This document shows positions 17,737-31,200 of a stretch of DNA of 39,568 bases, piece by piece. A model generated the notes under the pieces. That model was given only the letters and a program-made list of their open reading frames with translations. It was not told where the DNA came from and made no database searches. This stretch comes from a virus. The stretch lies in IMG/VR virus record IMGVR_UViG_3300045988_155041; one strand, written 5' to 3'. Each line of letters opens with the position of its first letter. The stretch's first letter is position 1. The position numbers and the translations under genes are program-made.

Positions 17737-19164
17737 ATGGCTTTATCACTATCAATAGGAACAAGTCAGCTTAGCCAATCGGTATCAGGAAACTATACTA
17801 CACTTAGAGTAAATGTAAATATAAGCTGGACATTTGGTTCATGGGACCATTACGGCTCAACAAAATATGTAACCATAAACGGCTCTACATACTATTTCAG
17901 CAGCGCAAAAATAAATCCAAACAGGACAAATTCCGGTTCGCAAACATTATATAGCGTAGATGTGAACATTCCTCACAACTCGGACGGAACTAAAACCGTA
18001 AGTATATACGCGTATGTAGTGACAAGTACAGGAAGCGGGACTGTCACAGCGTCGGCTTCTCCTACATTATCGAGGATACCGCGAACATCACCGGCCACAT
18101 TATCTGCCTCAAGCGTGACTACAGGCGGCAGTTTTACTGTATATACAAATAGGTATTCTTCAAGTTTTACGCATACGATAAAAATTACGCTCGGGTCAAA
18201 GTCCATAACGAAGACGGGTATCGGAACATCAGTGACGATTACAATACCAAGGGATTGGGCGGAGGCCTTGCCTAACGCCGCGAGCGGTACGGCTACGGTA
18301 GTATGTACTACTGACGGGATAGGTTCTGTTAGCAAGAATATTACCGTAAATGTAAACTCTAATGATATACCAACGCTTACAGAAGTAACAGTTGCTCCTT
18401 ACAGCGCTAATACTGTGGTAAGCGGCTGGAATATATATCTGCAAGGATATTCGGCCGTACAGGTAACCTTTAATACGGCGGCGGGGGTTTACGGGAGCAG
18501 CATAGCAGGATACAAGGTGGTTTACGGAAGCAGTGAAGTAACGAAGTCACCGTATAGGACGCCTGTAATAAATAACAGCGGCGCTCAAAAAGTATATTGC
18601 TACGCGAAAGATTCGAGAGGACGCTGGAGCAAGGCTAAAGAAGTGAGTGTAGAGTTCTTGAGTTACGCTAAGCCGTCGTTATCGAACGCGCAGGCGTACA
18701 GGTCTAAAGATACAGGCGTAAAGGATGAGAAGAACGGAACGTCTCTTTCAGCTATTGCTACAGCGGTATTTTCGTCTTGCGGAGGGAAAAATAGCGCTAC
18801 GTTGAAATGCCGCAGGAGACGGCGCGACGGGGATTGGATGAGTTATGTTTCAATGCAGTCGGGCAAATTAACTACTTTTGCACAAGGAGCGGTTTCCGTT
18901 ACTTATTCGTATGAAGTAGAAATAAAAATTACAGACGCTCTTGGCGAAACAAATGAAGTGATAATCGAAATCCCTACAAAGGCGGCCGCGCTAAGTTTTT
19001 TGCCAGAAGGAAAAGGAGCGGCTGTGGGTAAAGTAGCTGAAAAGGAGGGAGTGCTCGAAGTCGCCTTTGACATTGAAACAGAAGGGAGCGTCACGACAGG
19101 GGATATACTCATTAACGACCCGGACCTTGAGGAGTTATGGGAATCGGTCTTCGGGGGGGGGTAA
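17737..19164 (+). CDS. Tail fibre/receptor-binding-region protein (DUF859, ReqiPepy6 Gp37-like by recollection)
   Basis: Ser/Thr-rich and beta-rich, 475 aa. It ends GGG-stop inside a G9 tract. Confidence 0.55.
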   Translation: MALSLSIGTSQLSQSVSGNYTTLRVNVNISWTFGSWDHYGSTKYVTINGSTYYFSSAKINPNRTNSGSQTLYSVDVNIPHNSDGTKTVSIYAYVVTSTGSGTVTASASPTLSRIPRTSPATLSASSVTTGGSFTVYTNRYSSSFTHTIKITLGSKSITKTGIGTSVTITIPRDWAEALPNAASGTATVVCTTDGIGSVSKNITVNVNSNDIPTLTEVTVAPYSANTVVSGWNIYLQGYSAVQVTFNTAAGVYGSSIAGYKVVYGSSEVTKSPYRTPVINNSGAQKVYCYAKDSRGRWSKAKEVSVEFLSYAKPSLSNAQAYRSKDTGVKDEKNGTSLSAIATAVFSSCGGKNSATLKCRRRRRDGDWMSYVSMQSGKLTTFAQGAVSVTYSYEVEIKITDALGETNEVIIEIPTKAAALSFLPEGKGAAVGKVAEKEGVLEVAFDIETEGSVTTGDILINDPDLEELWESVFGGG

Positions 19165-19604
19165 TACCTAAGTTAATAGACTATATTTACCCGCTCGGCA
19201 GCGTCATAGCCTCTGTAAATTCGGCCTTTGACCCTAACGAGGCATATAAATCTCAGACATGGGTCAGATTCGCGGAGGGAAGGACATTGGTCGGCGTCGA
19301 TACGTCAGATACAGATTTTAAAACGGTTGAAAAGACGGGCGGCGAAAAGACGCATAAATTAACGCTATATGAGATACCGAGCCATGAAGGGCATTTATAT
19401 AGCAATTATGATATGAACTCTATTGGTAATTGTAATCGCTATTTGGCAGAGTCTACTTTGGGACAATATGGCTCAGCGGGAAGAGGCTGGAACAGTGTGA
19501 ACGGCGGCGAAATACAGCCGGCGGGAATGTCAAGAGGCGGCGGAGCCGCGCATAACAATATGCAGCCGTATATATCGGTATATTATTGGAAACGAACAAA
19601 ATAA
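19137..19604 (+). CDS. Tail-collar-type fibre/baseplate domain protein
   Basis: GGEKTHKLTLYEIPSHEGH ... GGGAAHNNMQPYISVYYWKRT matches the phage tail collar pattern. The gaggag RBS sits only 2 nt from the ATG. Confidence 0.6.
   Translation: MGIGLRGGVIPKLIDYIYPLGSVIASVNSAFDPNEAYKSQTWVRFAEGRTLVGVDTSDTDFKTVEKTGGEKTHKLTLYEIPSHEGHLYSNYDMNSIGNCNRYLAESTLGQYGSAGRGWNSVNGGEIQPAGMSRGGGAAHNNMQPYISVYYWKRTK
19153..19161 (+). repeat. G9 homopolymer tract 1 (context tcGGGGGGGGGtaatac)
   Basis: Counted directly. It encodes the terminal GGG of 17737..19164 and overlaps the 5' end of 19137..19604. Confidence 0.95.
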
Positions 19605-19781: not shown

Positions 19782-20156
19782 ATGCTGCCTTTAAAACAGT
19801 GCTTGAAAGATATTGTAAAAATATTTACGGAGCAAACATTAACAACGAAAAATCTGAGCGCGGCAGAAAACAGAGTATCCATAGATTCCGGCGGATATAT
19901 GGTTTTGGGAAATTGGGTGTTTGTACAGATAACTTTGAAAATAAAGGTAACTCTAAACGGAAACACTTATTGGACACTCATGGATGGCTTTCCGGAACCA
20001 AAAACACCATTTGCGGCCTTGGGGGCAAACTATCACTTCATGGACGCGCCCGTGAATGTTTCACTTTATGGCTCGGCCCTAACTATAACTTGTGGGAATC
20101 AGGAATTACAGCCGGGAAGAATGTTGGTGATAAGTGGATTTTACATAAAAGCGTAA
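19782..20156 (+). CDS. Small beta-rich tail-associated protein
   Basis: Strong RBS aaggaggtggcggt before the ATG. Its composition is protein-like, unlike the overlapping frame. Confidence 0.55.
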   Translation: MLPLKQCLKDIVKIFTEQTLTTKNLSAAENRVSIDSGGYMVLGNWVFVQITLKIKVTLNGNTYWTLMDGFPEPKTPFAALGANYHFMDAPVNVSLYGSALTITCGNQELQPGRMLVISGFYIKA

Positions 20157-20174
20157 GGTTTAAGAGGTGTCGTC

Positions 20175-20597
20175 ATGCTTAATATAAAGACGGCGCTTAC
20201 GCAACTCGCTAACAGAGTTAAGGCGGAAAAGGACTATGTAGTAGAGTATAAGATAAACGACGCGGATAAATGGTCGTATAGAAAATGGGCGAGTGGTATA
20301 GCGGAATGCTGGTTGTTTTATTACAACACTATAGCGCCATATTCTTCAGGCGGAGTTGATAATTTTAAATATTCTTATACTGCCGCTTTTGATTTGCCAT
20401 TTGCGTTTGTAACTAATAGCGATAAAAATCATCATTGCGGATATTCAAAAACAGCATCTGTGTCTGTGAGCAATGGCACGGGTGTTGTAATTTCTGGACA
20501 TTTAAACGATACTCCGTCGAAGGTTCACCTCCATTGGACAAGTAATACGACGGGCGTTAGCTATATAAATATTCACTTAATGGGAAGGTGGAAATAG
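20175..20597 (+). CDS. Small tail-associated hypothetical protein
   Basis: RBS aagaggtg. Last ORF of the tail block. Confidence 0.5.
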   Translation: MLNIKTALTQLANRVKAEKDYVVEYKINDADKWSYRKWASGIAECWLFYYNTIAPYSSGGVDNFKYSYTAAFDLPFAFVTNSDKNHHCGYSKTASVSVSNGTGVVISGHLNDTPSKVHLHWTSNTTGVSYINIHLMGRWK

Positions 20598-20620
20598 CTA
20601 TAGCAAAGCTGCCAAAGATT

Positions 20621-20629
20621 TGATATAAT
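20621..20629 (+). promoter_or_regulatory. Extended -10 promoter element TGATATAAT
   Basis: Exact TGnTATAAT. The -35 region (tagcaa) is weak. Confidence 0.5.
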
Positions 20630-20635
20630 GAGAAA

Positions 20636-20908
20636 GTCAAGAGGACGAGCGAAAGCGGTTGGCCTTCCGAGATTCAAAAGGGATTTTGAATTTTAAGGAA
20701 GGTGGTAATATGGTGAGAATCACTATTTTTTTAGGAAATTCAGAATAACCATTTACATAAAAAATAACCGCCACGGCTGCGAACCCTTAGACGGCTATTT
20801 TAGTCACTGACGGTTAACCGTTTTTAGCGGTTTCCTCTTGACCTAAATATATCATAATGAAAATATAAACGCAAGAGATAATTAGACCAACCGCGAAGGT
20901 TGGTTTTT
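20636..20908 (+). ncRNA. Candidate structured non-coding RNA (~270 nt), class unknown
   Basis: Lies between an extended -10 promoter and an intrinsic terminator. A 10-bp perfect long-range helix pairs 20636..20645 with 20833..20842. Nested hairpins are present and no ORF exceeds 12 codons. Confidence 0.4.
20886..20908 (+). terminator. Intrinsic terminator
   Basis: accaacc gcgaa ggttggt, followed by tttt. Confidence 0.7.
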
Positions 20909-20924
20909 ATTATGCAATATTTGA

Positions 20925-20949
20925 TATTTTGTCGGGGCAGCGGGTTAGA
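20925..20949 (+). promoter_or_regulatory. Conserved 25-nt motif, copy C (tattttgtcggggcagcGGGTTAGA)
   Basis: Shares a 17-nt exact block, ggcagcgggttagaaaa, with copy D. It lies 70 nt upstream of the ATG at 21019. Confidence 0.5.
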
Positions 20950-21018
20950 AAATAATAAATAAATTTGAGAAAATATAGATAAAGTAAAAGTTAGACTATG
21001 AAAAGAAAGGGAGATAAA

Positions 21019-22239
21019 ATGGCATATTCACAAATAGGATACGGCTCATCAGGAAGTGATGTAAGGAAGCTGCAAGAAATACTGAATGGCAAGGGATATA
21101 ATCTTTCTGTTGACGGACAATTCGGAGCAAAAACCAAGTCAGCTGTAAGAGACTATCAGTCTAAGAATGGTTTAAGCGTTGACGGAATTGTAGGCGTTAA
21201 TACGTGGGGAAAACTTACGAGCGATTCCTCGTCGTCTCAGACGCCCGCAACAAGTTCAAATACAAAATCGAACTTGCTCGGAGTATCAGATTATACCGCG
21301 AGTAATTTAAGCAAGTATGAGGAAGGATATAAGCCTTCTGACGCGGTTATAAAAGCGCAGGAATATTTGAATAAAGTTTCAGAAGAAAAGCCTTCGCCAT
21401 TTGTATCATCATATAAAGAACAACTTGAAGATATATATAACAAGATAATGAACCGGAAGGAATTTTCTTACGACCTTAACGGAGACATGCTCTACCAGCA
21501 GATGAAAGACCAATATCAAGTATTGGGGAAAACAGCTATGCAGGACACTATGGGAGAGGCCGCGGCATTAACGGGCGGATATGGAAACACATATGCGCAA
21601 AGTGTCGGACAGCAAACGTATGACGAATATTTGAGGCAACTTAATGATAATATACCGGACCTTTATCAATTAGCCTTACAGCAGTATAACTCCGAAGGCG
21701 AGCGTATGTTACAACAGTACGAGCTTACGGGAGATATGTATAACGACGAGTATAACAAGTACATGGACGCATATAATCAGTGGCTTGCGGAAAGAGATTT
21801 TGTAAGCAATAGATATGATTCAGAACGTAATTTTGATTATAACGATTTCGCTAATATGCTTTCTTATTGGCAGTCTATGGCGGGAGCCGAAAATCAAAAC
21901 TATTGGAATCAGAAAGATTATGATTTTCAGTTGCAACAGTTTGAATATCAAAAGCAGCAGGACGCTATAGCAAATGCTTTAGCGAGGCAGAAATTGGCTC
22001 TCGCGTCGTCGGGCGGCGGAAGCTCGGGAAGCGGCTCAGAGGAACCGGATGTGTCAAAAGGCGCGACACAAAACGCAAAGAATGTTTTAGGAGAATACGG
22101 AAAATATTTAGCTCAAGGAGGGGCAGGAGCTGATAGGCTGGCCTATGTTATAGAAATGATAGAAAACAGAACGCAAGAGGATGACGGGTTAAATAATAAT
22201 GAAAGAGCTTGGGTATTGGCGCAGTTAGCCAAAAGATAG
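21019..22239 (+). CDS. Peptidoglycan-binding (PG_binding_1) domain protein with a Gln/Asn/Tyr-rich C-terminal region
   Basis: GSDVRKLQEILNGKGYNLSVDGQFGAKTKSAVRDYQSKNGLSVDGIVGVNTWGKL. Start refined to the ATG behind aagggagataaa. Confidence 0.7.
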   Translation: MAYSQIGYGSSGSDVRKLQEILNGKGYNLSVDGQFGAKTKSAVRDYQSKNGLSVDGIVGVNTWGKLTSDSSSSQTPATSSNTKSNLLGVSDYTASNLSKYEEGYKPSDAVIKAQEYLNKVSEEKPSPFVSSYKEQLEDIYNKIMNRKEFSYDLNGDMLYQQMKDQYQVLGKTAMQDTMGEAAALTGGYGNTYAQSVGQQTYDEYLRQLNDNIPDLYQLALQQYNSEGERMLQQYELTGDMYNDEYNKYMDAYNQWLAERDFVSNRYDSERNFDYNDFANMLSYWQSMAGAENQNYWNQKDYDFQLQQFEYQKQQDAIANALARQKLALASSGGGSSGSGSEEPDVSKGATQNAKNVLGEYGKYLAQGGAGADRLAYVIEMIENRTQEDDGLNNNERAWVLAQLAKR

Positions 22240-22248
22240 GAGGAAGAA

Positions 22249-25200
22249 ATGGCAAAAACAAAAGCTATAGAGTATTATGCTAAAAAGGCTAAAATGTTGG
22301 CACAAGAGTCAATAGATTATGAAAGGGAAAACGTTGTAAAATATTATTCCCAAAAAGCTAAGGCGCTGGCGCAAGAGTCAATAGATTATGAAAGGCAAGT
22401 AAAAGATTCGGCGCAGAAAAGAGAAATTAAAAAATTAGCCTCTACATATGGCTTTACCGAATCCAATATAGCAAATGCTTCACCTTTTGTACAGCAGAAG
22501 ATAACTACAAGCGAGAATAAAAAGAATACGAATATTACGCCGAGATATAAGACGGCGAAAGAAACAAAAGAGGCGATAGAAAATCTTAACAAGGATATTG
22601 CGACTAATGGAATGGCTTTTCCCGCTATTGAACACGGAGAGGCGTATCAATCGTTTTTAAAGGCTCGTTCTGAATATACGAAAGAGTACAAAAAGGAGAA
22701 GAAAACTCTGACAGATGAATATAACTTTCTTAAAGATAAAGAAGATGAAGCTAAAACAAAAGATTTGCCGGAGGACCTTCTGGAATTACTTGACGAATAT
22801 AATAGGGGCCATATAGATACTACATATAATCCGTTTAGTTACGCGAGGTCTCAAGACGGCTATAAATATTTCGGGAAAGAACTTAAATATGACGGTTATA
22901 CAGAAAAAGAACTTAAAGAGCTCGCGGCGGCAAGGAAACGCAAAACTGACGAAATAGATACGATTAAGGCGTTACAAGAAGCATATGAATTATCAAAAGA
23001 AAGCCCCGTGCAGGGCAGTATAGGGTCTTTAGTAGATAACTTCGCGGGAGGGGCTACAGGCTTATTTGATTTGGCCGGACAATATATAAAGGACCCTGAC
23101 AGAGATTTTAATGTAAACACTATGTCTCTGAGAAAGAGCCAAACCGCAAACGCGGCGAGGTCCGCGGTGTCTGAAGACATAGAAACCCCACTTCTTAGGA
23201 AGTTATATGATGTAGGAATGAGTATAGGAGACATGGTTACCGCCAGCGCTGGAACTTTGGGTTATGGAACACTCCCTATGTTTTTCGCTGAAGCAGGCGT
23301 TCAAAACGCTATAGACCTTACAGAAAGGGGCACTGATTCTTCAACGGCGCTTGCGGGAGGCTTAGCCGCCGGAACATTCGAGGTTTTATTTGAGAAACTT
23401 TCTTTGGGCAATTTAAAGGCTCTTTCACGAATGAACACTTCTACGCTGAAAGGCTTTGGAAAGGAGTTTGCGAAAACTGTAGGCGTTAACGCCTCTGAGG
23501 AAGCCGCGACAGAAGCAACTAATATTTTATACGATACTCTGGCTAACGGCGACATTTCTAATTACAGTCTTAGAAAAGAGCAAATTATGGCTGAGGGTAA
23601 AACTGAAGAAGAAGCAAAGACGGAGATTTTTAATGAATTTTTATCGCAAATTGGAGACGCCGCGTTATCAGGCGGTTTAATGGGAGGAATGCTTGCTCCG
23701 GCGGGAATAGCGGTAGGCAACTACAGATATTCAAAGCAAGGAAAAAATCTGTCAGAAGGGCAAACCGAGGCCCTAAAGGACTATTCTTCAACGTCAGGGG
23801 GAGAAGCAGGGAGGTTGTATAAAGAATATCAATCTAAATACAGTGATAAAAACGCGGCTCTCGGTATGATGAAAGAAGCAGCGGATAATGAAGTAATATC
23901 CAATCTGATTGAGTCGGAATCTTTGAACGATATTACGGAGGCATATGACAACGCTGTAAAGTTAAATACAGATGAAGGTACGAGACGAATTTTAGATAAC
24001 GTATATAACGCTCGCGTAAGTCAGATATTTAATAAAGAGACGGCGGGAGAAACAAACGCCGTTGTAAACAGTAACGGCCATACTATTGGTGTAAACAGAA
24101 GCGAGGAAATCAGAGGCGGCAGGAATTACACTTTAAGTAAAGATGATGTTGAAGTTATAAAAAGGACTGCCGGAGCAAAATTACAGGACGGAAGCGAGGT
24201 TATAATAAACGGTATTACTGATGATAACGGAGAATTAAAGTATAAGACAATAGAGGGAAAGGCAGTAGCACCTTCCGAGGTGACGTTTAACAATGATACC
24301 ACAAGGGAACTGTATCAGAAAGCCGCGGAAATAGAGGAACCGGCAAGGAATCTTTTCATAAATACCTACCCGGGAGACGTGTCTGTAGGCAAGTTCAAAA
24401 ATGGGTTTGAGAATTTTTATGATTCGGGCAAATTGAGCGGCGCGGTTTCTTTTGATATGGCAAAAGAGATGAACTCGGCGTTTCTTGAGAATGTAATAAA
24501 TGAAAGCGCGGCAAGAAAGGCGTACGAAGCCGGACAGGCGAGCATAACGGGAAACGTTAATATAAACGACAGTATTATAAGAAAATCTACCGCCGGAACC
24601 GTGGTAGACAATACTGTTGTGAATCACTTAGACGAAGGAGTAAAAGAGCTTATTGGCAGTATAGCCAAGAAAACGGGCATAGACTTTGAACTTACTGACG
24701 AGATTATAGCGGGAGAGACGGCAAGAGGGGAGAGAGTATACGCCAATGGGTATTTTGACAAAGCCGTAGTTAAGGCTGTTATATCAGGAGACGCTGATAA
24801 CGCTGCGGAGGCGGCGGCACATGAGACTACGCACTTTGCCTTTGCTTTAAATAATAAAGATATGAAAAAGGTTTCAGACCTTTGTATTGCTTATCTTGCC
24901 GAGACAAGCGACGCCAAAACGGCGGAGGCCCTTATAGAAAACAAGATGAAGAATGTTGAGACAAGGGAGGATGCTATAGAGGAACTGACGAGCGACGCTA
25001 TAGCGGGCATAATTTCGAGCGAAGAAGGGGCGAAGGCGTTTATAGAATATCTTGAAACAGATAAAAATTTAACTACTGCCGAAAAGAGGACTATTCTTGA
25101 GAAAATAAAAGACTTAATAGAGAGAGTTTTGGAATCAATAAAAGCTCTTGCCGGACAGGGACATATTTCCGATACGGCAAAAGTCTTCGCTGAGGCTGAA

Positions 25201-28200
25201 TATGACCGCGTGAGCGAAATCTTAAACTTATACACCAAGGCTTTGGACAAGGCGAGTGAAAAGTTAAGAAAGGGAGAGAGAGCCGAAGAAGGGGCAGGAA
25301 AAGTAAATACAAAGTTCTCTTTAAAGAATAAGAATATAACTGAAGACACAAAAATTCCTTTTGTAATTGCGGAGGAATATATTGACGTACCTAAAAATAA
25401 TAAAGCTGCTTTAAGCGAGTTACAAAACAAGGTGAAGCAGCTCCCGAGAAGTACTTATGAGAACAAGGCTACGGGATATAGGGCGGATATAACGGAAGAA
25501 ACTATTAAAAAGGCTATAAACCCTACACATAAAAATTTTAATAAACATAGTTCAAAATATATAAATAATTTAAACGCTACGCTGAACTTTTCTGAGCTTT
25601 TTGAAAATGCGGTATATATAGATACCATAGAGAACCAAAAGAGTAAAAACGCAAACAAAAATATCAAAGGTTTTCACCACTTCGTTGCACCTCTTAGAAT
25701 GAAAGGAGCAGACTACAGGACACTTATTACAGCGAGAGAAAAGAAAAATTCTAACACGTTATATGTACTTGGAGTAGAGGTTTTACCTATGAAAAAGAAG
25801 ATGTCTCAATCGGCAACTTCTTTGAGTGGTTCCCGCTCTAAGGAGACATCTTCTATGATTACTATACCTGACCTCATAAGAGATGTCAAGATATATAATT
25901 ATGATACGCAAGAAAATCAGACATATACACAGGAAAACATAAAATTCTCCTTTATTGGGGAAAAGGCGTTGAATAAAAACAATAAGTCTTTGGAAAAAGC
26001 TAAAGAAATGGAATCGGCCGGAAAAACGAGCGAGGATATAAGGAAGAACACGGGCTGGTTCAGAGGAGGAGATAATAAATGGCGTTTCGAGATTGATTCC
26101 AGCAAGATGAGAGTAGACCACAGAGGTAAATTCCATAGAAATTCGGCGATACGCCGCCGCTGGGAATTATTCGATAAACTACATGTTACCAATACGGCCA
26201 CAAAAGCAGATTTTCAAGAGCTTATGCAGCTTGACAGAACTCTCGGAACTTTAACGGAACCAAAGAAATTAGGGGATTTAATTGACTATCCGCAACTTTT
26301 TGAGGCATATCCACAGTTAGCTGATATGGACTTTTCATTTGTAAATTTGGGAGATATGGACGGAGGATATAGCCCGCTTGTTAATAAGATTTTTATAGAT
26401 GAAAGTTTGAAAGAAGACTCTCAGCAGATGAGACAGACGCTCATACATGAAATTCAACACGCCATACAGGAAGCTGAAGGATTTGCCAAGGGTTCCAATC
26501 TTATAGGGTTGAATAAAGCTATTGAGGAAGCAAAGCGTATTGAAGAAAAAACAGATAAACAGCTTGACGTGGCTATAGATGAGCTTTTTAGACTTCTTGA
26601 TGAAAGTGGGTATATTGAACAGTATGGCGAGGATATTGATGTACTCGCCGAAAAGGAACAGGATAGAATCAGGGCATTTTTCAAAGAAAACAACAAAGAC
26701 GGTGCGGAAGCATTAGAAAAAGTTATAAAGCTATGGGAAGAAAATACGCGGGCAATCACCGAAACGGCCAGACTCCAAAAAATATCAAGCCACGATTACT
26801 ACATGAATAGCGCAGGAGAAATAGAGGCAAGAGATGTTTCAAACAGATTGTATTTCACTGAAGAACAGATAAGAAATATAAGGCCCGATATAGATAATGA
26901 CGCCGCGATTGTAAGATTCTCTCTAAAAAATAAAAATATAACTGAGGACACAAAAATTCCTTTTGTTATTGCGGAGGAATATATTGACGTGCCTAAAAAC
27001 AACAAGGCGGCTTTAAGCGAGCTACAAAACAAGGTGAAGCAGCTTCCAAGAGGTACGTATGAAAATAAGGCTACAGGATACAAAGCAAATATAAATTCAA
27101 ATACGATAAAAAAAGCGTTGACTCCTACGCATAAGAAATTTAATTGGTTTTCTGAGGAATATATCAACAATTTAAATGGCATTTTAAGGTTATCAGAACT
27201 TTTTAAAACAGCTATATATGTGGACACTATATCTCCGATGAAAAATAAAAAAGATAATCCAAACATGAAAGGCTTTCACCATTTTGTCGCACCGCTTGGA
27301 ATGAAAGGAGGGGCGTACAGAGCGTTAATTACAGCAAGGGAAAAAGAAAATTCTAATACACTATACGTTCTTAGAGTAGAAGTTCTGCCAATAGAAAAAA
27401 CGCCCCTATTGACAGCTTCTTCGATTGGCTCCCAATCTGTGAGGGCGTTTTCTGAAATCAGTATACCTGACCTCATAAGAGATGTCAAGATATATAATTA
27501 TGATACGCAAGAGAGCCAGATTTATACACAGGAAGATATAAAATATTCATTGCTCGATTCTTCCGGAAGGAAACTAACAAAGAAGCAGGCTGAATACTTT
27601 AAGGGTAGTAAAGCGAGAGACGATAACGGTAACTTACAGATTGTATATCATGGCACAAATGAAGCCGGTTTTACTGTGTTTAATAGGAATATCAACTTTT
27701 ATTCAGACAGTAAAGAATTAGCTAAAACTTACAGTAACACTAATGGGCTGTATGAAGGCTACGCAAATATTAAAAATCCTTTAGTCATCGACGTTAAAGG
27801 TGAGAAGTGGTCAGGCATTCCTGTAGAATATATCGAACTCGAAAATATAGAAGATATTTTCAATGAATACGGAGTAGATACCTTTGAAGATGGTGGAATG
27901 GAAAGAACATCAACTGCTGATATTGCAAGTGCTATTGATGAGGCGGTCGAAGAGGGTCAATTAAACTATGACGGAATCATTTTCAAAAATATTTATGATG
28001 AGGGTTCCTATAGTTCGGGGATTGGCATTATATTAGCAAACGATTATGTAACATTTAACAAAAATCAATTTAAAAATATTACTAACGAAAATCCAACAGA
28101 CGATCCGGATATAAGATTTTCTCTAAAAAACAAAAACATAACTGAAGATACAAAAATTCCTTTCGTGATTGCCGAAAGGTACGTTGACGTACCTAAAAAT

Positions 28201-31200
28201 AATAAAGCTGCTTTAAGAGAGTTACAAAACAGAGTGAAGGAGATCCCAAGAGGCACGTATGAGAATAAGGCTACGGGATACAGGGCTGGCATAAATGGCA
28301 AAACGATAGGAAAAATTCTTAATCCAAAACCTAATTTTAATCCGTGGGGGAAAAATTACATTGATAATTTGAATGCGGCGCTATATTTACCAAATCTTTT
28401 TAAAAATGCTGTATATATAGACACCATAGAAAACCAGAAAAGTAAGAATGCCAATAAGCAAATAAGAGGTTTTCATCATTTTATAGCACCTATAACGATG
28501 AAAGATAATAATTATAGAGTAAAAATAACCGCAAGAGAAAAAGAAAACTCAAATCTTCTATATATTGTAGATACTGAAATACTACAAAATAAAGAAGATG
28601 TCGCATTACCAAACAATATGAATGGTAATTTCTTGACGACATCTTTTAAAATTAGTATACCCGACCTCATAAAAGATGTCAAGATATATAATTATGATAT
28701 GCAGGAAAATCAGACATATACATACGAGGATATAAAATTTTCCATAAAAGAAAACGCTACAAAGGCGGGAGAACTCCTTGAAGAAAACAGAAAGTTAAAA
28801 AGGATAAACGAAAATCTCATAGCGCAGTTTAAGATTACAGATGGCATGAAAATAAGAAACAATATAATAGAGGGTATAGCCCAAAGCCTTTTAGAAGACT
28901 ACGATAGCGAATATACTATTGACGCTTTGAAAAATGACCTTATGGCTCTATATAACTATATAGAAACAGCCGAAAATCTTACGATTCAAGACATAGCTGC
29001 CGGAGCGCGTATAGTAGGAGAAAGAATAGTAGAAAACAGAAACAAAAAAGGGATAACAGACGAAACAAAAGAAATCCTTGAAGACATTAGAACTGTCAAG
29101 ATAACTCTGGACGATGTTCAGAAAAAGGAGACCGCATATCATTTCGGAAGTTATGACAATTTCAGAAGAAAGAATTTCGGAAAGTTGAGAGTTACTGATA
29201 ACGGAACTGCCCTTGATACGAAGTGGCAGGAATGGGCGGTAGCCTATCCTCAACATTTCGATCCCAATATTTCTCCGGCGGACCAACCTATTAAGTTAAA
29301 CGATATAGTAGAAAGCCTTAGCGAAAGCTATATCGATACTCTCGGCATGAACGAAGACGAAGCTGCCATAATGGTAGGCCTTGACGTATACGAAAGGTAT
29401 TTCGATGTTCCGAGCGTAAAGACCTTCGCGGATAAAAAGAAAGCTGAAATGGACAAACTGAAGGCCGAGACCAAGGTTCTTATAAGGAGCGTAAAGGAAG
29501 AATACAGAGATAAAACGAAGAAATGGGCGGCAGACAGAAGGGAAACTGAATTAAAGCAAAGCTATAAAAGACGTATAACGACGGTAGTGAGAAGACTGAA
29601 TAGCACAATGGAGGCAAACAGTTACAGTAAAAATATACCGGACGCGATGAAAGGAGCCGTGTCGGAATTTATTAAGCCTTTTTTAAATGATAAAGAGGTC
29701 TTTGAAGAAGGAAGAAGTGCGAGGCTTGCTGATATGTATAACAGAATCGGCGAGAGAATGAAAGATGCGGAAGGAAATGAAGCGAGCAAGGATGACACAT
29801 ATGTTGACTTCATTTCCGCATACGACAAGGACATAGAGGATAGCATAAAGACCTTTAAAGAAGTTCTCAAAGACAAAACCCTCAATGACCTTAACAGCAG
29901 CGAGCTTTCTATAATCAAGGACACTCTTGACAATCTCTCAAAGATGTTAGAAACAGCAAATACTGTTTTTATCGCCGGAAAGAAAGCGAAGCTGGCGGAA
30001 GTAGGCGACGCTACCATAGCAGAGCATACTAAGGAAAAAGTGAAAGAAAGGCTGGCTATAACCGAAAATCAGTATTACAAGACCGTCAAATCCTTTGCAG
30101 ATAGTAATATTACGCCGGGATATTTTTTTAAAAGGCTCGGAGGGGCTTTTAGCGACCTATATAACGATTTTTTGGACGGTCAGGATAAATATGCCAACAT
30201 CATGCAAAACTCAAGAGAGAAGTTTAAGGAGATAGCTGAAAAGAACGGATATTATAATTGGGACAAGAAACAGAGGATAAAAATAGAAATAGGAGGAGAC
30301 GAACACGAGGTAACTCTTGAGCAGTTAATGCTCCTATATGCTACAGGCAGGCGTGAGCAGGAAAACGGCATGGAGTCTATGCACATATTTTCTGGCGGAG
30401 TCACGTTCAGAAATGCGAAAAAGACGAAAGAAAAGAAAATAGGGCCTATAAATGGGAAAATAAAATACACGGACAAACAAACCGGAATACCTATTACCTT
30501 TGACGAATATATAGAGGCGTGCGGAAAGCTGACGGAAAAACAAATCAATTTTACGGACGAGCTTGTAAAATATTTGTCTGAGGATATGGCCTCTTACGGC
30601 AATCAGGTAACGAGAGAAATGTACGGTATCAGTAAGTTCAATGAGAAATATTACATACCTTTTAACTCGGATTCTAATTTTATATACAGCAATTCCGGAG
30701 GTACGCAAGGGCTTGAAAACAGGCTCAAACACGCCTCATATACAAAAAATCTGACTTACGGGGCTAATAACCCGCTGATTTTAGACGATATTACGGACGT
30801 CTGGTCGGCGCATGTGGCGCAAATGGCTATGTACAGTTCGTTGATGAGGCCTATTGAAGAATTAAACAAGGTTCTTAATTATAAGAATGAGAATGGAATT
30901 ACTGTAAAGGCGCAACTTAATGCGACATATACAGGTGACACGGTTAATTACATACAAACCTTTATGCGAGACGTAAACGGAGGTTTGAGTTTGCCTAAAG
31001 AAGAACAGGTGATGAAGAAGCTGACTACACAGTTTAAAAAGGCCGCCACTTATGCTTCAATGTCGGTAGCCGTTCAGCAGCCTACGTCAATACTCAGGGC
31101 AATGTGTATGATAAATCCAAAATATTTTGCGGGCAGAAAAATAGAGGCGCCAAAAAAAGAGAAAAGACTTCAAACCTCGTCGTCGGCCGATTACGAACAA

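What the first reader, a model, noticed from the sequence alone, without database searches (positions are those of the whole stretch)
20598..21018. A ~400-bp ORF-free island inside the late region carries a promoter, a long-range helix, alternative pairings and a terminator: a candidate structured RNA
This is the largest non-coding gap in the structural region. It contains, in order:
- an exact extended -10, TGATATAAT (20621..20629);
- a 10-bp perfect complement pairing gtcaagagga (20636..20645) with tcctcttgac (20833..20842), which encloses about 187 nt;
- a nested hairpin, ccttcc...attcaaaa ggga ttttgaat...ggaagg (20663..20702);
- an AACCGC segment (20766..20771) that can pair with either of two GCGGTT segments (20655..20660 or 20827..20832), giving mutually exclusive structures;
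- three direct ACGG(C/T)T repeats spaced 18-19 nt apart (20773, 20791, 20810);
- a 12-bp palindrome, acggttaaccgt, followed by ttttt (20810..20826);
- a strong terminator (20886..20908).

The only coding potential is a 12-codon mini-ORF, MVRITIFLGNSE (20710..20748). Its RBS, aaggaaggtgg, lies inside the hairpin.

I cannot assign this region to a known RNA class. Alternative explanations are a leader-peptide attenuator, an iteron-type replication origin, or a decayed gene.
Basis: partly seen in the sequence, partly recalled or inferred. Interest (0 to 1): 0.65.

Follow-up and report, generated by a model that had tools for sequence, protein, structure and literature searches.

The report
Prophage toxin-antitoxin-like sense/antisense RNA cassette
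The "ORF-free island" is a small self-contained cassette with two facing promoters that make a tightly folded mini-mRNA and an 84-nt antisense RNA; it looks like a new family of the well-known type I toxin-antitoxin modules of prophages, and in this copy the tiny toxin gene is frameshifted.

Summary
The + strand 20636-20912 folds far better than shuffles (z = -5.9).

The region is not an orphan structured RNA. It is a ~280-bp cassette that I found in 10 sequence variants, in gut Clostridia prophages and once in a chromosome.

All variants share these parts:
- Two convergent extended -10 promoters. Each lies 3-7 nt before the same GTCAAGAGGA.
- A sense RNA whose 5' 29 nt pair with a 3' arm in a ~27-bp helix. 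All mismatches but two are G:U on the + strand.
- An anti-SD that pairs with the whole SD (9/10).
- A mini-ORF 5-8 nt after the SD.
- A 76-87-nt antisense RNA with its own terminator, complementary to the sense 3' UTR including the 3' arm.
- A final terminator (9/10).

In five variants the ORF encodes a 22-25-aa hydrophobic, BsrG/TxpA-like peptide. In the others it encodes a 19-27-aa amphipathic peptide. The window copy is a 1-nt-deletion frameshift of the latter type (12 aa).

Best reading: a type I toxin-antitoxin-like module inserted between the tail-fibre gene and its terminator. No transcript or toxicity was tested. Rfam, Pfam and NCBIfam gave no match, so I call it a new member of a known kind. 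The iteron and palindrome features are by-products of the helices.

The parts
20601..20606 (+). Weak -35-like hexamer (TAGCAA) of the sense promoter P(A)
   Evidence: It lies 17 nt upstream of TATAAT. The equivalent position reads T(A/T/G)G in 9 of the 10 variants and CAG in one; L129 has TTGACA.
20621..20629 (+). Extended -10 (TGATATAAT) of the sense promoter P(A)
   Evidence: A TGnTAnnnT box is present in all 10 variants, 6-7 nt before GTCAAGAGGA.
20636..20912 (+). RNA-A: predicted ~275-nt sense transcript (mini-mRNA), from GTCAAGAGGA to the terminal terminator
   Evidence: MFE -85.6 kcal/mol, z = -5.87. The same architecture is seen in 10 variants. The transcript ends are inferred, not measured.
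20636..20664 (+). 5' arm of the long-range (5'-3') helix
   Evidence: It pairs with 20812-20842. There are 27 pairs and 98.5% of cells are paired across 10 sequences, against 34-57% when the partner is slid. Among the non-Watson-Crick cells, 34 are G:U on the + strand and 2 are A:C.
20663..20702 (+). Anti-SD / SD hairpin (CCUUCC ... GGAAGG with a nested AUUCAAAA/UUUUGAAU stem)
   Evidence: Folding the nascent 5' region pairs the whole SD with an upstream anti-SD in 9 of 10 variants: CCUUCC in 7, CCAUUUCC in L130 and CCCCCU in L132. This holds although the intervening sequences are unrelated.
20710..20748 (+). Mini-ORF MVRITIFLGNSE, a frameshifted remnant of a 19-aa ORF
   Evidence: L034 and L038 encode MVRITISFKKFRITIYIKK, and L044 encodes MVRVTVTYSKGVLRITVSMKKAAKAGN. 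The window has one base fewer in the T-run (T7, against TTTCTTTT) and one A fewer before the stop. The SD-to-start spacing is 7 nt.
20759..20802 (-). Central hairpin plus U-run: intrinsic terminator of the antisense RNA (only a weak terminator on the + strand)
   Evidence: The terminator scan reports a minus-strand site here. A stem with a U4-7 run is present at nt ~71-87 of the antisense RNA in all 10 variants. Ten pairs show compensatory changes. The window and L034 stems contain G:U pairs that would be A:C mismatches on the + strand.
20812..20842 (+). 3' arm of the long-range helix; also the template of the antisense RNA's 5' end
20759..20842 (-). RNA-B: predicted 84-nt antisense RNA (single-stranded 5' GUCAAGA, hairpin 1, linker, terminator)
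   Evidence: The covariance model built from the 10 variants scores the window copy at 84 bits, although the window is one of the training sequences. RNA-B is fully complementary to nt 124-207 of RNA-A.
20846..20854 (-). Extended -10 (TGATATATT) of the antisense promoter P(B)
   Evidence: A TGnTAnnnT box is present on this strand in all 10 variants, 3 nt before GTCAAGAGGA.
20869..20874 (-). -35 (TTGCGT) of P(B)
   Evidence: It lies 17 nt from the -10. The TTG (CAA on the + strand) is invariant in all 10 variants inside an otherwise variable spacer.
20884..20912 (+). Terminal intrinsic terminator, ending RNA-A and probably the upstream tail-gene transcript
   Evidence: A terminator lies 35-45 nt after the right repeat in 9 of 10 variants, with different stem sequences. 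The relative L004, which lacks the cassette, keeps only a terminator at this place.

Best explanation
The region is a type I toxin-antitoxin-like cassette, carried as an accessory insert (a 'moron') between the last tail-fibre gene and its terminator in a temperate podovirus-like prophage of a human-gut Anaerovoracaceae bacterium.

Proposed mechanism:
1. Two sigma-A-type promoters face each other across 207 bp.
2. P(A) makes a ~275-nt sense RNA.
3. As the sense RNA emerges, an anti-SD (CCUUCC) pairs with the SD (GGAAGG), and a second hairpin covers the AUG. The mini-ORF therefore cannot be translated while it is being transcribed.
4. Once the 3' UTR is made, the first 29 nt pair with it in a ~27-bp helix rich in G:U pairs. 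This closes the molecule.
5. P(B), which has the better -35, makes an 84-nt antisense RNA. It is perfectly complementary to the 3' UTR of the sense RNA, from just after the ORF to the end of the 3' arm.
6. The 5' 31 nt of the antisense RNA is a near copy of the sense RNA's 5' arm. It can displace that arm (-55 against -37 kcal/mol) and create an 84-bp duplex. By analogy with txpA/RatA and bsrG/SR4, that duplex would be cut by RNase III, which keeps the peptide from being made.

In relatives the ORF encodes either a 22-25-aa hydrophobic, BsrG/TxpA-like peptide or a 19-27-aa cationic amphipathic peptide. In this window a 1-nt deletion truncates the second type to 12 aa, so this copy is probably toxin-defective while both RNA genes stay intact.

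Shown here: the sequence features, their conservation and compensatory changes, and the insertion/absence polymorphism. Inferred: transcription, the transcript ends, RNase III cleavage, toxicity, and the biological role. Candidate roles are prophage maintenance, abortive infection, or help with lysis.
For: Anatomy and folding.
- All motifs are verified in the sequence, and the + strand folds with z = -5.87.

Ten distinct variants.
- They were found with three DNA patterns, in viral, genome and metagenome collections (55/56).
- Both inward extended -10 boxes are conserved in 10 of 10. The TTG of the P(B) -35 is invariant.

Long-range helix.
- RNAalifold predicts it.
- It has 27 pairs and 98.5% of cells are paired, against 34-57% in slid controls.
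- Purines at two positions of the 5' arm face UU, and C appears opposite them only where the purine is G (L044, L129). There are 34 G:U cells against 2 A:C cells, which points to the + strand RNA.

Translation control.
- The anti-SD:SD pairing is kept in 9 of 10 variants with three different sequence pairs. The SD-to-start spacing is 5-8 nt.

Antisense RNA.
- It is 76-87 nt in 10 of 10 variants and carries a terminator with compensatory changes.
- It covers the 3' UTR and the last 0-9 codons of the ORF.
- The duplex of the antisense RNA with the 3' arm (-54 to -62 kcal/mol) is stronger than the cis helix (-29 to -42 kcal/mol) in all 10.

Peptides in the homologues.
- MTDYELLIIVFTVITIIEVVRKNRP, MTDYEVLMIVFTMITIMEVVRKNRP, MSDYEVLMIVLTILILIVSVKNK, MTEYIFDVVYLLILYRIVKEIK.
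- L040 and L130 differ by 6 synonymous and 4 conservative changes (read).
- The first 10 residues share 7 identities with BsrG. I recalled the BsrG sequence from memory and confirmed it at 100% in phage SPbeta.

Context.
- The cassette is always co-oriented with the late genes. It sits after a tail gene, or within or next to the holin-endolysin genes. One copy is in a non-phage chromosomal site.
- It is absent from 79 other relatives of the neighbouring gene and from the closest diverged relative, L004.
- The host contigs are 200-690 kb, so the element is a prophage.

Literature on type I systems.
- They use SD/anti-SD pairing, 5'-3' long-distance interactions and, in Gram-positive families, antisense RNAs that overlap the mRNA's 3' end (PMC8594479).
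- In txpA, bsrE and bsrG the ribosome-binding site is locked by 4-5 G-C pairs (PMC6562991).
- They are typically located in prophages (PMC6563280).
Against: - There is no experimental evidence. Promoters, transcript ends and toxicity are all predictions.
- The window's own ORF is only 12 codons and is not hydrophobic.
- The 'type 2' peptide (MVRITISFKKFRITIYIKK) is not a typical transmembrane toxin.
- Pfam and NCBIfam gave no hit for any peptide. BLASTP found no alignment to BsrG. Rfam gave no hit to any known antitoxin RNA.
- Formal covariation in the long-range helix is weak. There is one double change, and the shuffle control is not exceeded, because most columns are invariant or change by wobble.
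- Only 10 variants were available. All copies of the window's own phage are identical here.
- Folding predicts no change in SD accessibility when the antisense RNA binds. How the peptide would ever be released from repression is therefore not explained.
Confidence: 0.7

Rival explanations
1. The region is a stand-alone structured non-coding RNA, or a sense/antisense RNA pair, whose function does not depend on any peptide. On this reading the ORF is incidental, and the conserved scaffold acts as a regulatory or decoy RNA. One version is an antitoxin-only 'anti-addiction' copy that neutralises related cassettes of other prophages.
For: - The RNA scaffold is better conserved than the ORF. Twenty-five nt at the 5' end are invariant in 6 of the 10 variants, and the ORF content is swapped between two unrelated peptide types.
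- The window's ORF is frameshifted to 12 aa, yet both promoters, all helices and both terminators are intact.
- The first 31 nt of the antisense RNA are nearly invariant between variants, so cross-reaction is conceivable.
Against: - A strong SD at 5-8 nt from a start codon is kept in all 10 variants, and it is deliberately sequestered. That only makes sense for a translated ORF.
- Substitutions in the ORFs are mostly synonymous or conservative.
- The intactness of the window copy says little, because all sampled copies of this phage are about 99.9% identical overall.
Confidence: 0.13
2. The region is a cis-acting transcription insulator or switch at the end of the tail operon. On this reading the convergent promoter, the alternative pairings (GCGGUU with AACCGC, against the terminator hairpin) and the two terminators control how much late transcription reads on into the downstream cell-wall, ejection or lysis genes.
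For: - The cassette is always co-oriented with the late genes. It lies directly upstream of a holin, endolysin or peptidoglycan-binding gene in most variants.
- The window's MFE uses the 5' GCGGUUGG: AACCGC pairing, which competes with the central hairpin.
- The U-run on the + side of the central hairpin is variable, while the terminal terminator is constant.
Against: - One copy (L038) sits in a non-phage chromosomal site, and one (L129) in an unrelated context.
- 79 related phages, and L004, manage with a plain terminator.
- This reading does not explain the conserved SD, the ORF, or the hydrophobic peptides.
Confidence: 0.08
3. The region is a DNA-level element. Candidates are a miniature inverted-repeat mobile element, an invertible promoter segment flanked by the GTCAAGAGGA repeats, or an iteron-type origin.
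For: - It has inverted repeats of 10-30 bp enclosing about 190 bp.
- Its distribution is sporadic and it occurs in several genomic contexts.
- Several assemblies break exactly at the cassette.
Against: - There is no target-site duplication.
- The orientation relative to the flanking late genes is the same wherever the cassette lies in a phage late region, and in all 10 identical prophage copies.
- Mismatches between the repeats are almost all G:T on one strand, which is the signature of an RNA helix, not of a protein-binding or DNA-hairpin site.
- Each repeat is preceded by a promoter box.
- The ACGGYT 'iterons' are not conserved.
- The contig breaks are explained by conserved ends shared between cassette copies in the same community. 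L038 and L040, for example, are in one genome.
Confidence: 0.04

Closest known systems
bsrG/SR4 and txpA/RatA (TxpA/BsrG family) type I toxin-antitoxin systems of Bacillus subtilis prophage SPbeta and the skin element
   Same: - They are prophage-borne.
- The toxin mRNA and the antisense RNA are transcribed convergently, and the antisense RNA overlaps the 3' end of the mRNA and the end of the ORF (PMC8594479).
- The ribosome-binding site is locked in a short G-C helix (PMC6562991).
- The duplex is degraded by RNase III (PMC3531473, PMC3834814).
- The hydrophobic peptides of the homologues begin M-T/S-x-Y-E-x-L-M/I-I. BsrG begins MTVYESLMIM.
   Different: - The peptides here are shorter: 22-25 aa, against 38-59 aa.
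- The antisense RNA is about 85 nt, against roughly 180-220 nt (the latter figures are from memory).
- The sense RNA is closed by a 27-bp 5'-3' helix whose 3' arm is the antisense target.
- There was no match to Pfam, NCBIfam, BLASTP or Rfam.
- The window copy carries a different, frameshifted ORF.
hok/sok (fold-back inhibition) and aapA1/IsoA1 of Helicobacter pylori
   Same: The full-length toxin mRNA is held inert by a long-distance 5'-3' interaction together with SD sequestration (PMC8594479, PMC6733600).
   Different: - Those systems are in Gram-negative bacteria.
- Their antisense RNA acts on the 5' part or the ORF after 3' processing of the mRNA. Here the antisense RNA targets the 3' arm itself and resembles the 5' arm.
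par (Fst, RNA I / RNA II) of Enterococcus plasmid pAD1
   Same: Two convergent promoters read towards a shared central terminator hairpin. The toxin is small and translation is blocked by 5' structure. These points are from my own knowledge and the family listing in PMC8594479.
   Different: - In par, the two RNAs interact through direct repeats outside the overlap.
- Here the repeats are inverted, so the two RNAs start with the same 10 nt.
- The interaction is through full 3' overlap.
Type I toxin-antitoxin modules of Clostridioides difficile prophages (for example CD0956.2/RCd10, CD0904.1)
   Same: They occur in Clostridia and inside prophages, have convergent antisense antitoxins, and are proposed to stabilise the prophage (PMC6563280).
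   Different: - Their toxins are 34-59 aa.
- I did not compare their sequences with the peptides here; the review reports no sequence homology between type I toxins of different species.
- They are not reported with a 5'-3' closing helix.

Membership tests
Type I toxin-antitoxin system (generic features as listed for T1TAdb, PMC8594479) | A short mRNA (150-400 nt) with its own promoter and terminator | tested here: met
   The predicted transcript is about 275 nt (20636-20912). It has an extended -10 promoter and a terminator, both conserved across the variants. Transcription itself was not measured.
Type I toxin-antitoxin system (generic features as listed for T1TAdb, PMC8594479) | A cis-encoded antisense RNA that base-pairs with the toxin mRNA | tested here: met
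   The minus strand carries a promoter, an 84-nt RNA and a terminator. All are conserved in 10 of 10 variants, with compensatory changes in the terminator stem. The RNA overlaps nt 124-207 of the sense RNA.
Type I toxin-antitoxin system (generic features as listed for T1TAdb, PMC8594479) | SD sequestered by an anti-SD, and/or a 5'-3' long-distance interaction | tested here: met
   The anti-SD pairs with the SD in 9 of 10 variants. The 27-bp 5'-3' helix has 98.5% of cells paired.
Type I toxin-antitoxin system (generic features as listed for T1TAdb, PMC8594479) | A small hydrophobic (membrane) toxin ORF, in the window copy | tested here: not met
   The window ORF is MVRITIFLGNSE: 12 aa, frameshifted relative to L034 and L038, and without a transmembrane-length hydrophobic stretch.
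Type I toxin-antitoxin system (generic features as listed for T1TAdb, PMC8594479) | A small hydrophobic toxin ORF, in homologous cassettes | tested here: met
   Six variants (L040, L130, L132, L030, L128, L129) encode five distinct 22-25-aa peptides with a hydrophobic core and a basic C-terminus. The other four variants (window, L034, L038, L044) encode an amphipathic, non-transmembrane peptide.
Type I toxin-antitoxin system (generic features as listed for T1TAdb, PMC8594479) | Toxicity on overexpression, neutralised by the antisense RNA | not testable with these tools
   This needs expression experiments.
TxpA/BsrG toxins (Hol-Tox) with RatA / SR4 antitoxin RNAs | The peptide matches the family profile or aligns to BsrG | tested here: not met
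   Pfam and NCBIfam gave no hit at E <= 10. BLASTP against BsrG gave no alignment. tblastn of the peptide against phage genomes found nothing. Only an N-terminal motif resembles BsrG: 7 of the first 10 residues are identical.
TxpA/BsrG toxins (Hol-Tox) with RatA / SR4 antitoxin RNAs | The antisense RNA matches the Rfam antitoxin models | tested here: not met
   No Rfam family reached its gathering score in the window. With relaxed thresholds on 20400-21200, only chance-level matches with E > 1 appeared, and none was to an antitoxin family.
hok/sok-type or AapA/IsoA-type systems | The antisense RNA acts on the 5' leader or ORF of a 3'-processed mRNA | tested here: not met
   Here the antisense RNA is complementary to the 3' UTR only. 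The shared feature is the 5'-3' closing helix.
Miniature inverted-repeat element / invertible promoter | Target-site duplication, or both orientations seen relative to the flanking genes | tested here: not met
   There is no flanking duplication. The orientation is the same in every late-region variant and in all 10 identical prophage copies.
Iteron-type replication origin | Conserved, regularly spaced direct repeats | tested here: not met
   The ACGGYT repeats are not kept in the homologues. They coincide with stem arms.

The most novel reading that the evidence does not exclude
The conserved RNA frame may be a modular 'plug-in' scaffold into which unrelated mini-ORFs are swapped. The frame consists of the two promoters, the 5'/3' arms, the anti-SD and the antisense gene.

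On this reading:
- The antitoxin works by mimicking the mRNA's own 5' arm and displacing it from the 3' arm.
- The cationic amphipathic peptide (MVRITISFKKFRITIYIKK) would be a new, non-transmembrane kind of type I toxin.
- Toxin-dead copies such as the window's would persist as antitoxin-only 'anti-addiction' or cross-immunity modules against related cassettes of competing gut prophages. The 31-nt interaction region is nearly invariant between variants.
Probability: 0.2. Interest if true: 0.6.

Novelty: new member of a known kind. Interest (0 to 1): 0.38.

Why it matters
- Type I toxin-antitoxin modules are hard to find because their genes are tiny and unannotated. None of the peptides found here exists in a collection of about 15 billion predicted proteins, and the RNAs match nothing in Rfam.
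- This cassette would add a family from uncultured human-gut Clostridia prophages, with some of the shortest predicted type I toxins (22-25 aa).
- Its design is easy to read: the antisense RNA is a perfect-match copy of a wobble-weakened cis helix.
- It gives phage annotators a defined explanation for a recurrent 'empty' gap, and for contig breaks, next to tail-fibre and lysis genes.
- It offers a compact, testable model for strand-displacement control of an mRNA.
- It does not change any general concept.

Tried and rejected
Searches that found nothing.
- Rfam at gathering thresholds on the whole window, and at E <= 10 on 20400-21200: only chance-level matches.
- tRNA/tmRNA scan: none.
- blastn of 20100-21500 against 50,697 phage genomes: no match.
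- Protein-anchored search with the upstream 140-aa tail protein in viral contigs: nothing.
- The PG-binding gene gave only distant phages without the cassette.
- Eighty further relatives of that gene, retrieved with a profile, included only one carrier, which was already known.
- Ten copies of the same prophage were 100% identical in the region, so they were useless for covariation.

Chance matches discarded.
- L029, L031, L032 and L033: the same 10-mers, but unrelated interiors or ordinary TTGACA promoters.
- L035-L037, L039, L041, L042, L046 and L047: high-GC coding matches to the 20-mer.
- L131.

Peptide searches.
- Pfam, NCBIfam, tblastn against phages, BLASTP against BsrG, and an exact look-up all came back negative.
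- The large homology search refuses queries under 40 aa.

Hypotheses rejected.
- Iteron origin: the repeats are not conserved.
- Leader-peptide attenuator: ORF length and content, and the downstream gene, all vary.
- The 12-bp palindrome as a terminator: only the inner GGTTAACC is semi-conserved, and it is the 3' arm of the long helix.
- Inverton or MITE: fixed orientation, no duplication, and wobble mismatches specific to one RNA strand.
- A predicted switch in SD accessibility on antisense binding: not seen.
Full report
**1. The observation**

- The extended -10 TGATATAAT is at 20621-29.
- The perfect 10-bp inverted repeat GTCAAGAGGA / TCCTCTTGAC is at 20636-45 / 20833-42.
- The nested hairpin is at 20663-20702.
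- The AACCGC and GCGGTT segments, the three ACGGYT copies, and ACGGTTAACCGT followed by T5 are all present.
- The terminator at 20884-20906 is reported by the scan.
- The 12-codon ORF is at 20710-48.

The + strand 20636-20912 folds at -85.6 kcal/mol. Two hundred dinucleotide shuffles give -56.7 +/- 4.9 kcal/mol (z = -5.87, none as good). No tRNA, tmRNA or Rfam family matches.

It carries a second extended -10, TGATATATT (20854..20846), three nt before the other copy of GTCAAGAGGA. It also carries a terminator-like hairpin with a U-run (20802..20759).

**2. Genomic setting**

The window is a whole 39,568-bp contig. It is a podovirus-like temperate phage.
- It has a P22-like portal, a major capsid protein, a DUF859 tail protein, a Gp10_C domain and a tail-fibre-like 140-aa protein ending at 20597.
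- Next come a peptidoglycan-binding-domain protein (21019-22239), a 3393-aa polyvalent protein and an amidase.
- The same sequence lies inside 200-690-kb contigs of human-gut Anaerovoracaceae MAGs, so it is a prophage.
- Ten such copies are 100% identical across the gap.

**3. Relatives that lack the element**
- The closest diverged relative (L004, 75% identity in the downstream protein) has only about 170 nt here. That stretch holds a terminator plus the sequence that follows the terminator in the window.
- L005 and L006 (70%) have an 82-aa ORF instead.
- Of 80 further relatives of the downstream gene, only one carries the element.
- The element is therefore an accessory insert. It sits between the tail-fibre stop codon and the operon terminator.

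**4. Homologous cassettes**

Three DNA patterns recovered nine other distinct variants: L034, L038, L040, L044, L030, L128, L129, L130 and L132 (55/56).

When each is oriented by the long RNA:
- Wherever the cassette lies in a phage late region, it points the same way as the late genes.
- It lies after the last tail gene and before the holin plus endolysin, or between holin and endolysin, or before a PG-binding gene.
- One copy (L038) is in a non-phage chromosomal site beside a tRNA gene. It shares a genome with the prophage copy L040. L129 is in another context.

Several independent assemblies break exactly at the cassette. This is what conserved ends shared by several copies in one community would produce.

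**5. Conserved anatomy** (alignments)

*a. Promoters.* Both ends carry an inward-facing TGnTAnnnT box, 3-7 nt before GTCAAGAGGA, in 10 of 10 variants. The antisense promoter also has an invariant TTG at -35 inside an otherwise variable spacer. The sense promoter's -35 is weak.

*b. Long-range helix.* RNAalifold pairs the first 29 nt with the 31 nt that end at the right repeat.
- On 10 sequences, 27 pairs are 98.5% paired, against 34-57% when the partner is slid by 1-3 columns.
- Formal covariation is weak. There is one double change, and the shuffle control is not exceeded, because most columns are invariant or change by wobble.
- The strand signal is clear. Thirty-four non-Watson-Crick cells are G:U on the + strand and only two are A:C, both in the most divergent variant. 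C appears opposite the variable purines only where the purine is G.
- This is the signature of a helix in the + strand RNA, not of a DNA-level repeat.

*c. Anti-SD and SD.* Immediately after the 5' arm, an anti-SD pairs with the whole SD in 9 of 10 variants when the nascent 5' region is folded.
- The pairs are CCUUCC:GGAAGG or GGGAGG, CCAUUUCC:GGAGGUGG, and CCCCCU:AGGGGG.
- The intervening sequences are unrelated.
- The SD-to-start spacing is 5-8 nt.

*d. Antisense RNA.* The minus strand gives an RNA of 76-87 nt in every variant. It has a single-stranded 5' GUCAAGA, a short hairpin (with a YUNR loop in 7 of 10), a linker, and a terminator stem with a U4-7 run. Ten pairs in that stem show compensatory changes. 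In the window and L034 the stem contains G:U pairs that would be A:C on the + strand, so it is tuned for the minus-strand RNA. The U-run on the + side is variable.

*e. Final terminator.* A + strand terminator follows 35-45 nt after the right repeat in 9 of 10 variants, with different stem sequences.

**6. The ORF**

Six variants, carrying five distinct sequences, encode 22-25-aa peptides with a hydrophobic core and a basic tail.
- MTDYELLIIVFTVITIIEVVRKNRP
- MTDYEVLMIVFTMITIMEVVRKNRP
- MSDYEVLMIVLTILILIVSVKNK
- MTEYIFDVVYLLILYRIVKEIK (found in two variants)
- SAYEILVIVLMMITLIEMIRGNKK, which apparently starts at ATT

L040 and L130 differ by six synonymous and four conservative changes (read).

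Their N-terminus resembles BsrG (MTVYESLMIM...). I recalled that sequence from memory and confirmed it at 100% in phage SPbeta. BLASTP, Pfam and NCBIfam nevertheless give nothing, so family membership is not established.

The other variants encode a cationic amphipathic peptide: MVRITISFKKFRITIYIKK (L034, L038) or MVRVTVTYSKGVLRITVSMKKAAKAGN (L044). Part of that conservation may also serve a hairpin over the AUG (AUGGUGA/UCACUAU against AUGGUUA/UAACUGU).

The window copy is of this second type. It has one base fewer in a T-run and one fewer in an A-run, which gives MVRITIFLGNSE. None of the peptides is in the 15-billion-protein collection.

**7. Mechanism proposed**

The antisense RNA is fully complementary to nt 124-207 of the sense RNA. 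That stretch is the 3' UTR, from the last 0-9 codons of the ORF to the end of the 3' arm.

The 3' arm is also the partner of the 5' arm, so the antisense RNA's first 31 nt are a perfect-match version of the sense RNA's wobble-rich 5' arm. The computed duplex energies are -54 to -62 kcal/mol for antisense RNA with 3' arm. The cis arms give -29 to -42 kcal/mol. This holds in all ten variants.

I infer the following.
- The sense RNA is made translationally inert by the anti-SD and is closed by the 5'-3' helix.
- The antisense RNA invades, displaces the 5' arm and forms a duplex of about 84 bp.
- That duplex is degraded. RNase III does this in the B. subtilis prophage systems (PMC3531473, PMC3834814).

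These are the hallmarks listed for type I toxin-antitoxin loci:
- SD/anti-SD pairing, 5'-3' long-distance interaction and 3'-overlapping antisense RNAs in Gram-positive families (PMC8594479);
- ribosome-binding sites locked by 4-5 G-C pairs (PMC6562991);
- residence in prophages (PMC6563280).

Folding predicts no change in SD accessibility on antisense binding. How translation is ever released remains open.

Because late transcripts from the tail operon would read into the cassette, a role in lysis timing ('holin-like toxin') is as compatible with the data as prophage maintenance or abortive infection.

**8. Verdict**

The interpretation as a structured RNA is partly right, but the unit is a sense/antisense, type I toxin-antitoxin-like cassette of a family that is not in Rfam or Pfam.
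- The window copy probably has a dead ORF.
- The iteron, palindrome-terminator, attenuator, MITE and inverton readings are not supported.
- It is a new member of a known kind, of moderate interest.
- Everything about transcription and toxicity is inferred and needs the experiments listed.

Noticed in passing
window 19153-19161 (junction of ORFs 17737-19164 and 19137-19604): A poly-G tract varies among prophage copies that are otherwise about 99.9% identical. The window, L016, L017 and L018 have G9, which gives two ORFs of 475 and 155 aa. L014, L020 and L021 have G10, which gives one fused 622-aa DUF859 + Gp10_C protein. L015 has G11, L022 has G8, and L023 reads GGGGGGAGG. This looks like a phase-variable homopolymer switch that joins a tail protein to a receptor-binding-like C-terminal domain.
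   Followed up: partly
window 22249-32430: A 3393-aa polyvalent protein has three internal repeats of about 500 aa (LPD3), plus LPD23 and ART-PolyVal domains. One otherwise identical prophage copy (L021) encodes a 2859-aa version, so the repeat number appears to vary.
   Followed up: no
L013 1-60 (same phage as the window, downstream protein 100% identical): The contig starts inside the cassette. It is identical to the window from CCGTTTTTAGCGG onward, but the 30 nt before that are unrelated (CTACCGCAATATTTTTTCTGCACTTTTTAG). This is either a cassette with a swapped interior in the same phage lineage or an assembly chimera.
   Followed up: partly
L008-L012, positions 1-30 (relatives with 65% identity in the downstream protein): Five independent assemblies end within about 35 nt of each other, at or just inside the right end of an L030-type cassette. 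This suggests the conserved cassette ends act as repeats that break de Bruijn graph assemblies.
   Followed up: partly
window 20929-20956 and 20940-20952: After the cassette terminator there is a promoter-like site (TTGTCG, 16 nt, AATAAT) and a motif GCGGGTTAGAAAA. The motif is also present in the cassette-less relative L004 (GGGTTAGAAAAA). It may be the promoter or a regulatory site of the downstream PG-binding / giant-protein operon.
   Followed up: no
L038 551-834 and L040 5261-5554 (one Peptostreptococcaceae MAG, MGBC162508): One genome holds two cassettes with different ORF types. One is in a prophage before the holin gene. The other is in the chromosome next to a tRNA gene and a GIY-YIG gene. 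Their first ~60 nt are nearly identical, so cross-talk between copies is possible.
   Followed up: partly
L129 5891-6131 (minus strand of the locus): In this variant the hydrophobic ORF has no ATG, GTG or TTG at the expected distance from the SD. The reading frame appears to start at ATT (GGGAGGTGATAATATTTCAGCT...). This may be a deliberately weak start codon for a toxin.
   Followed up: no
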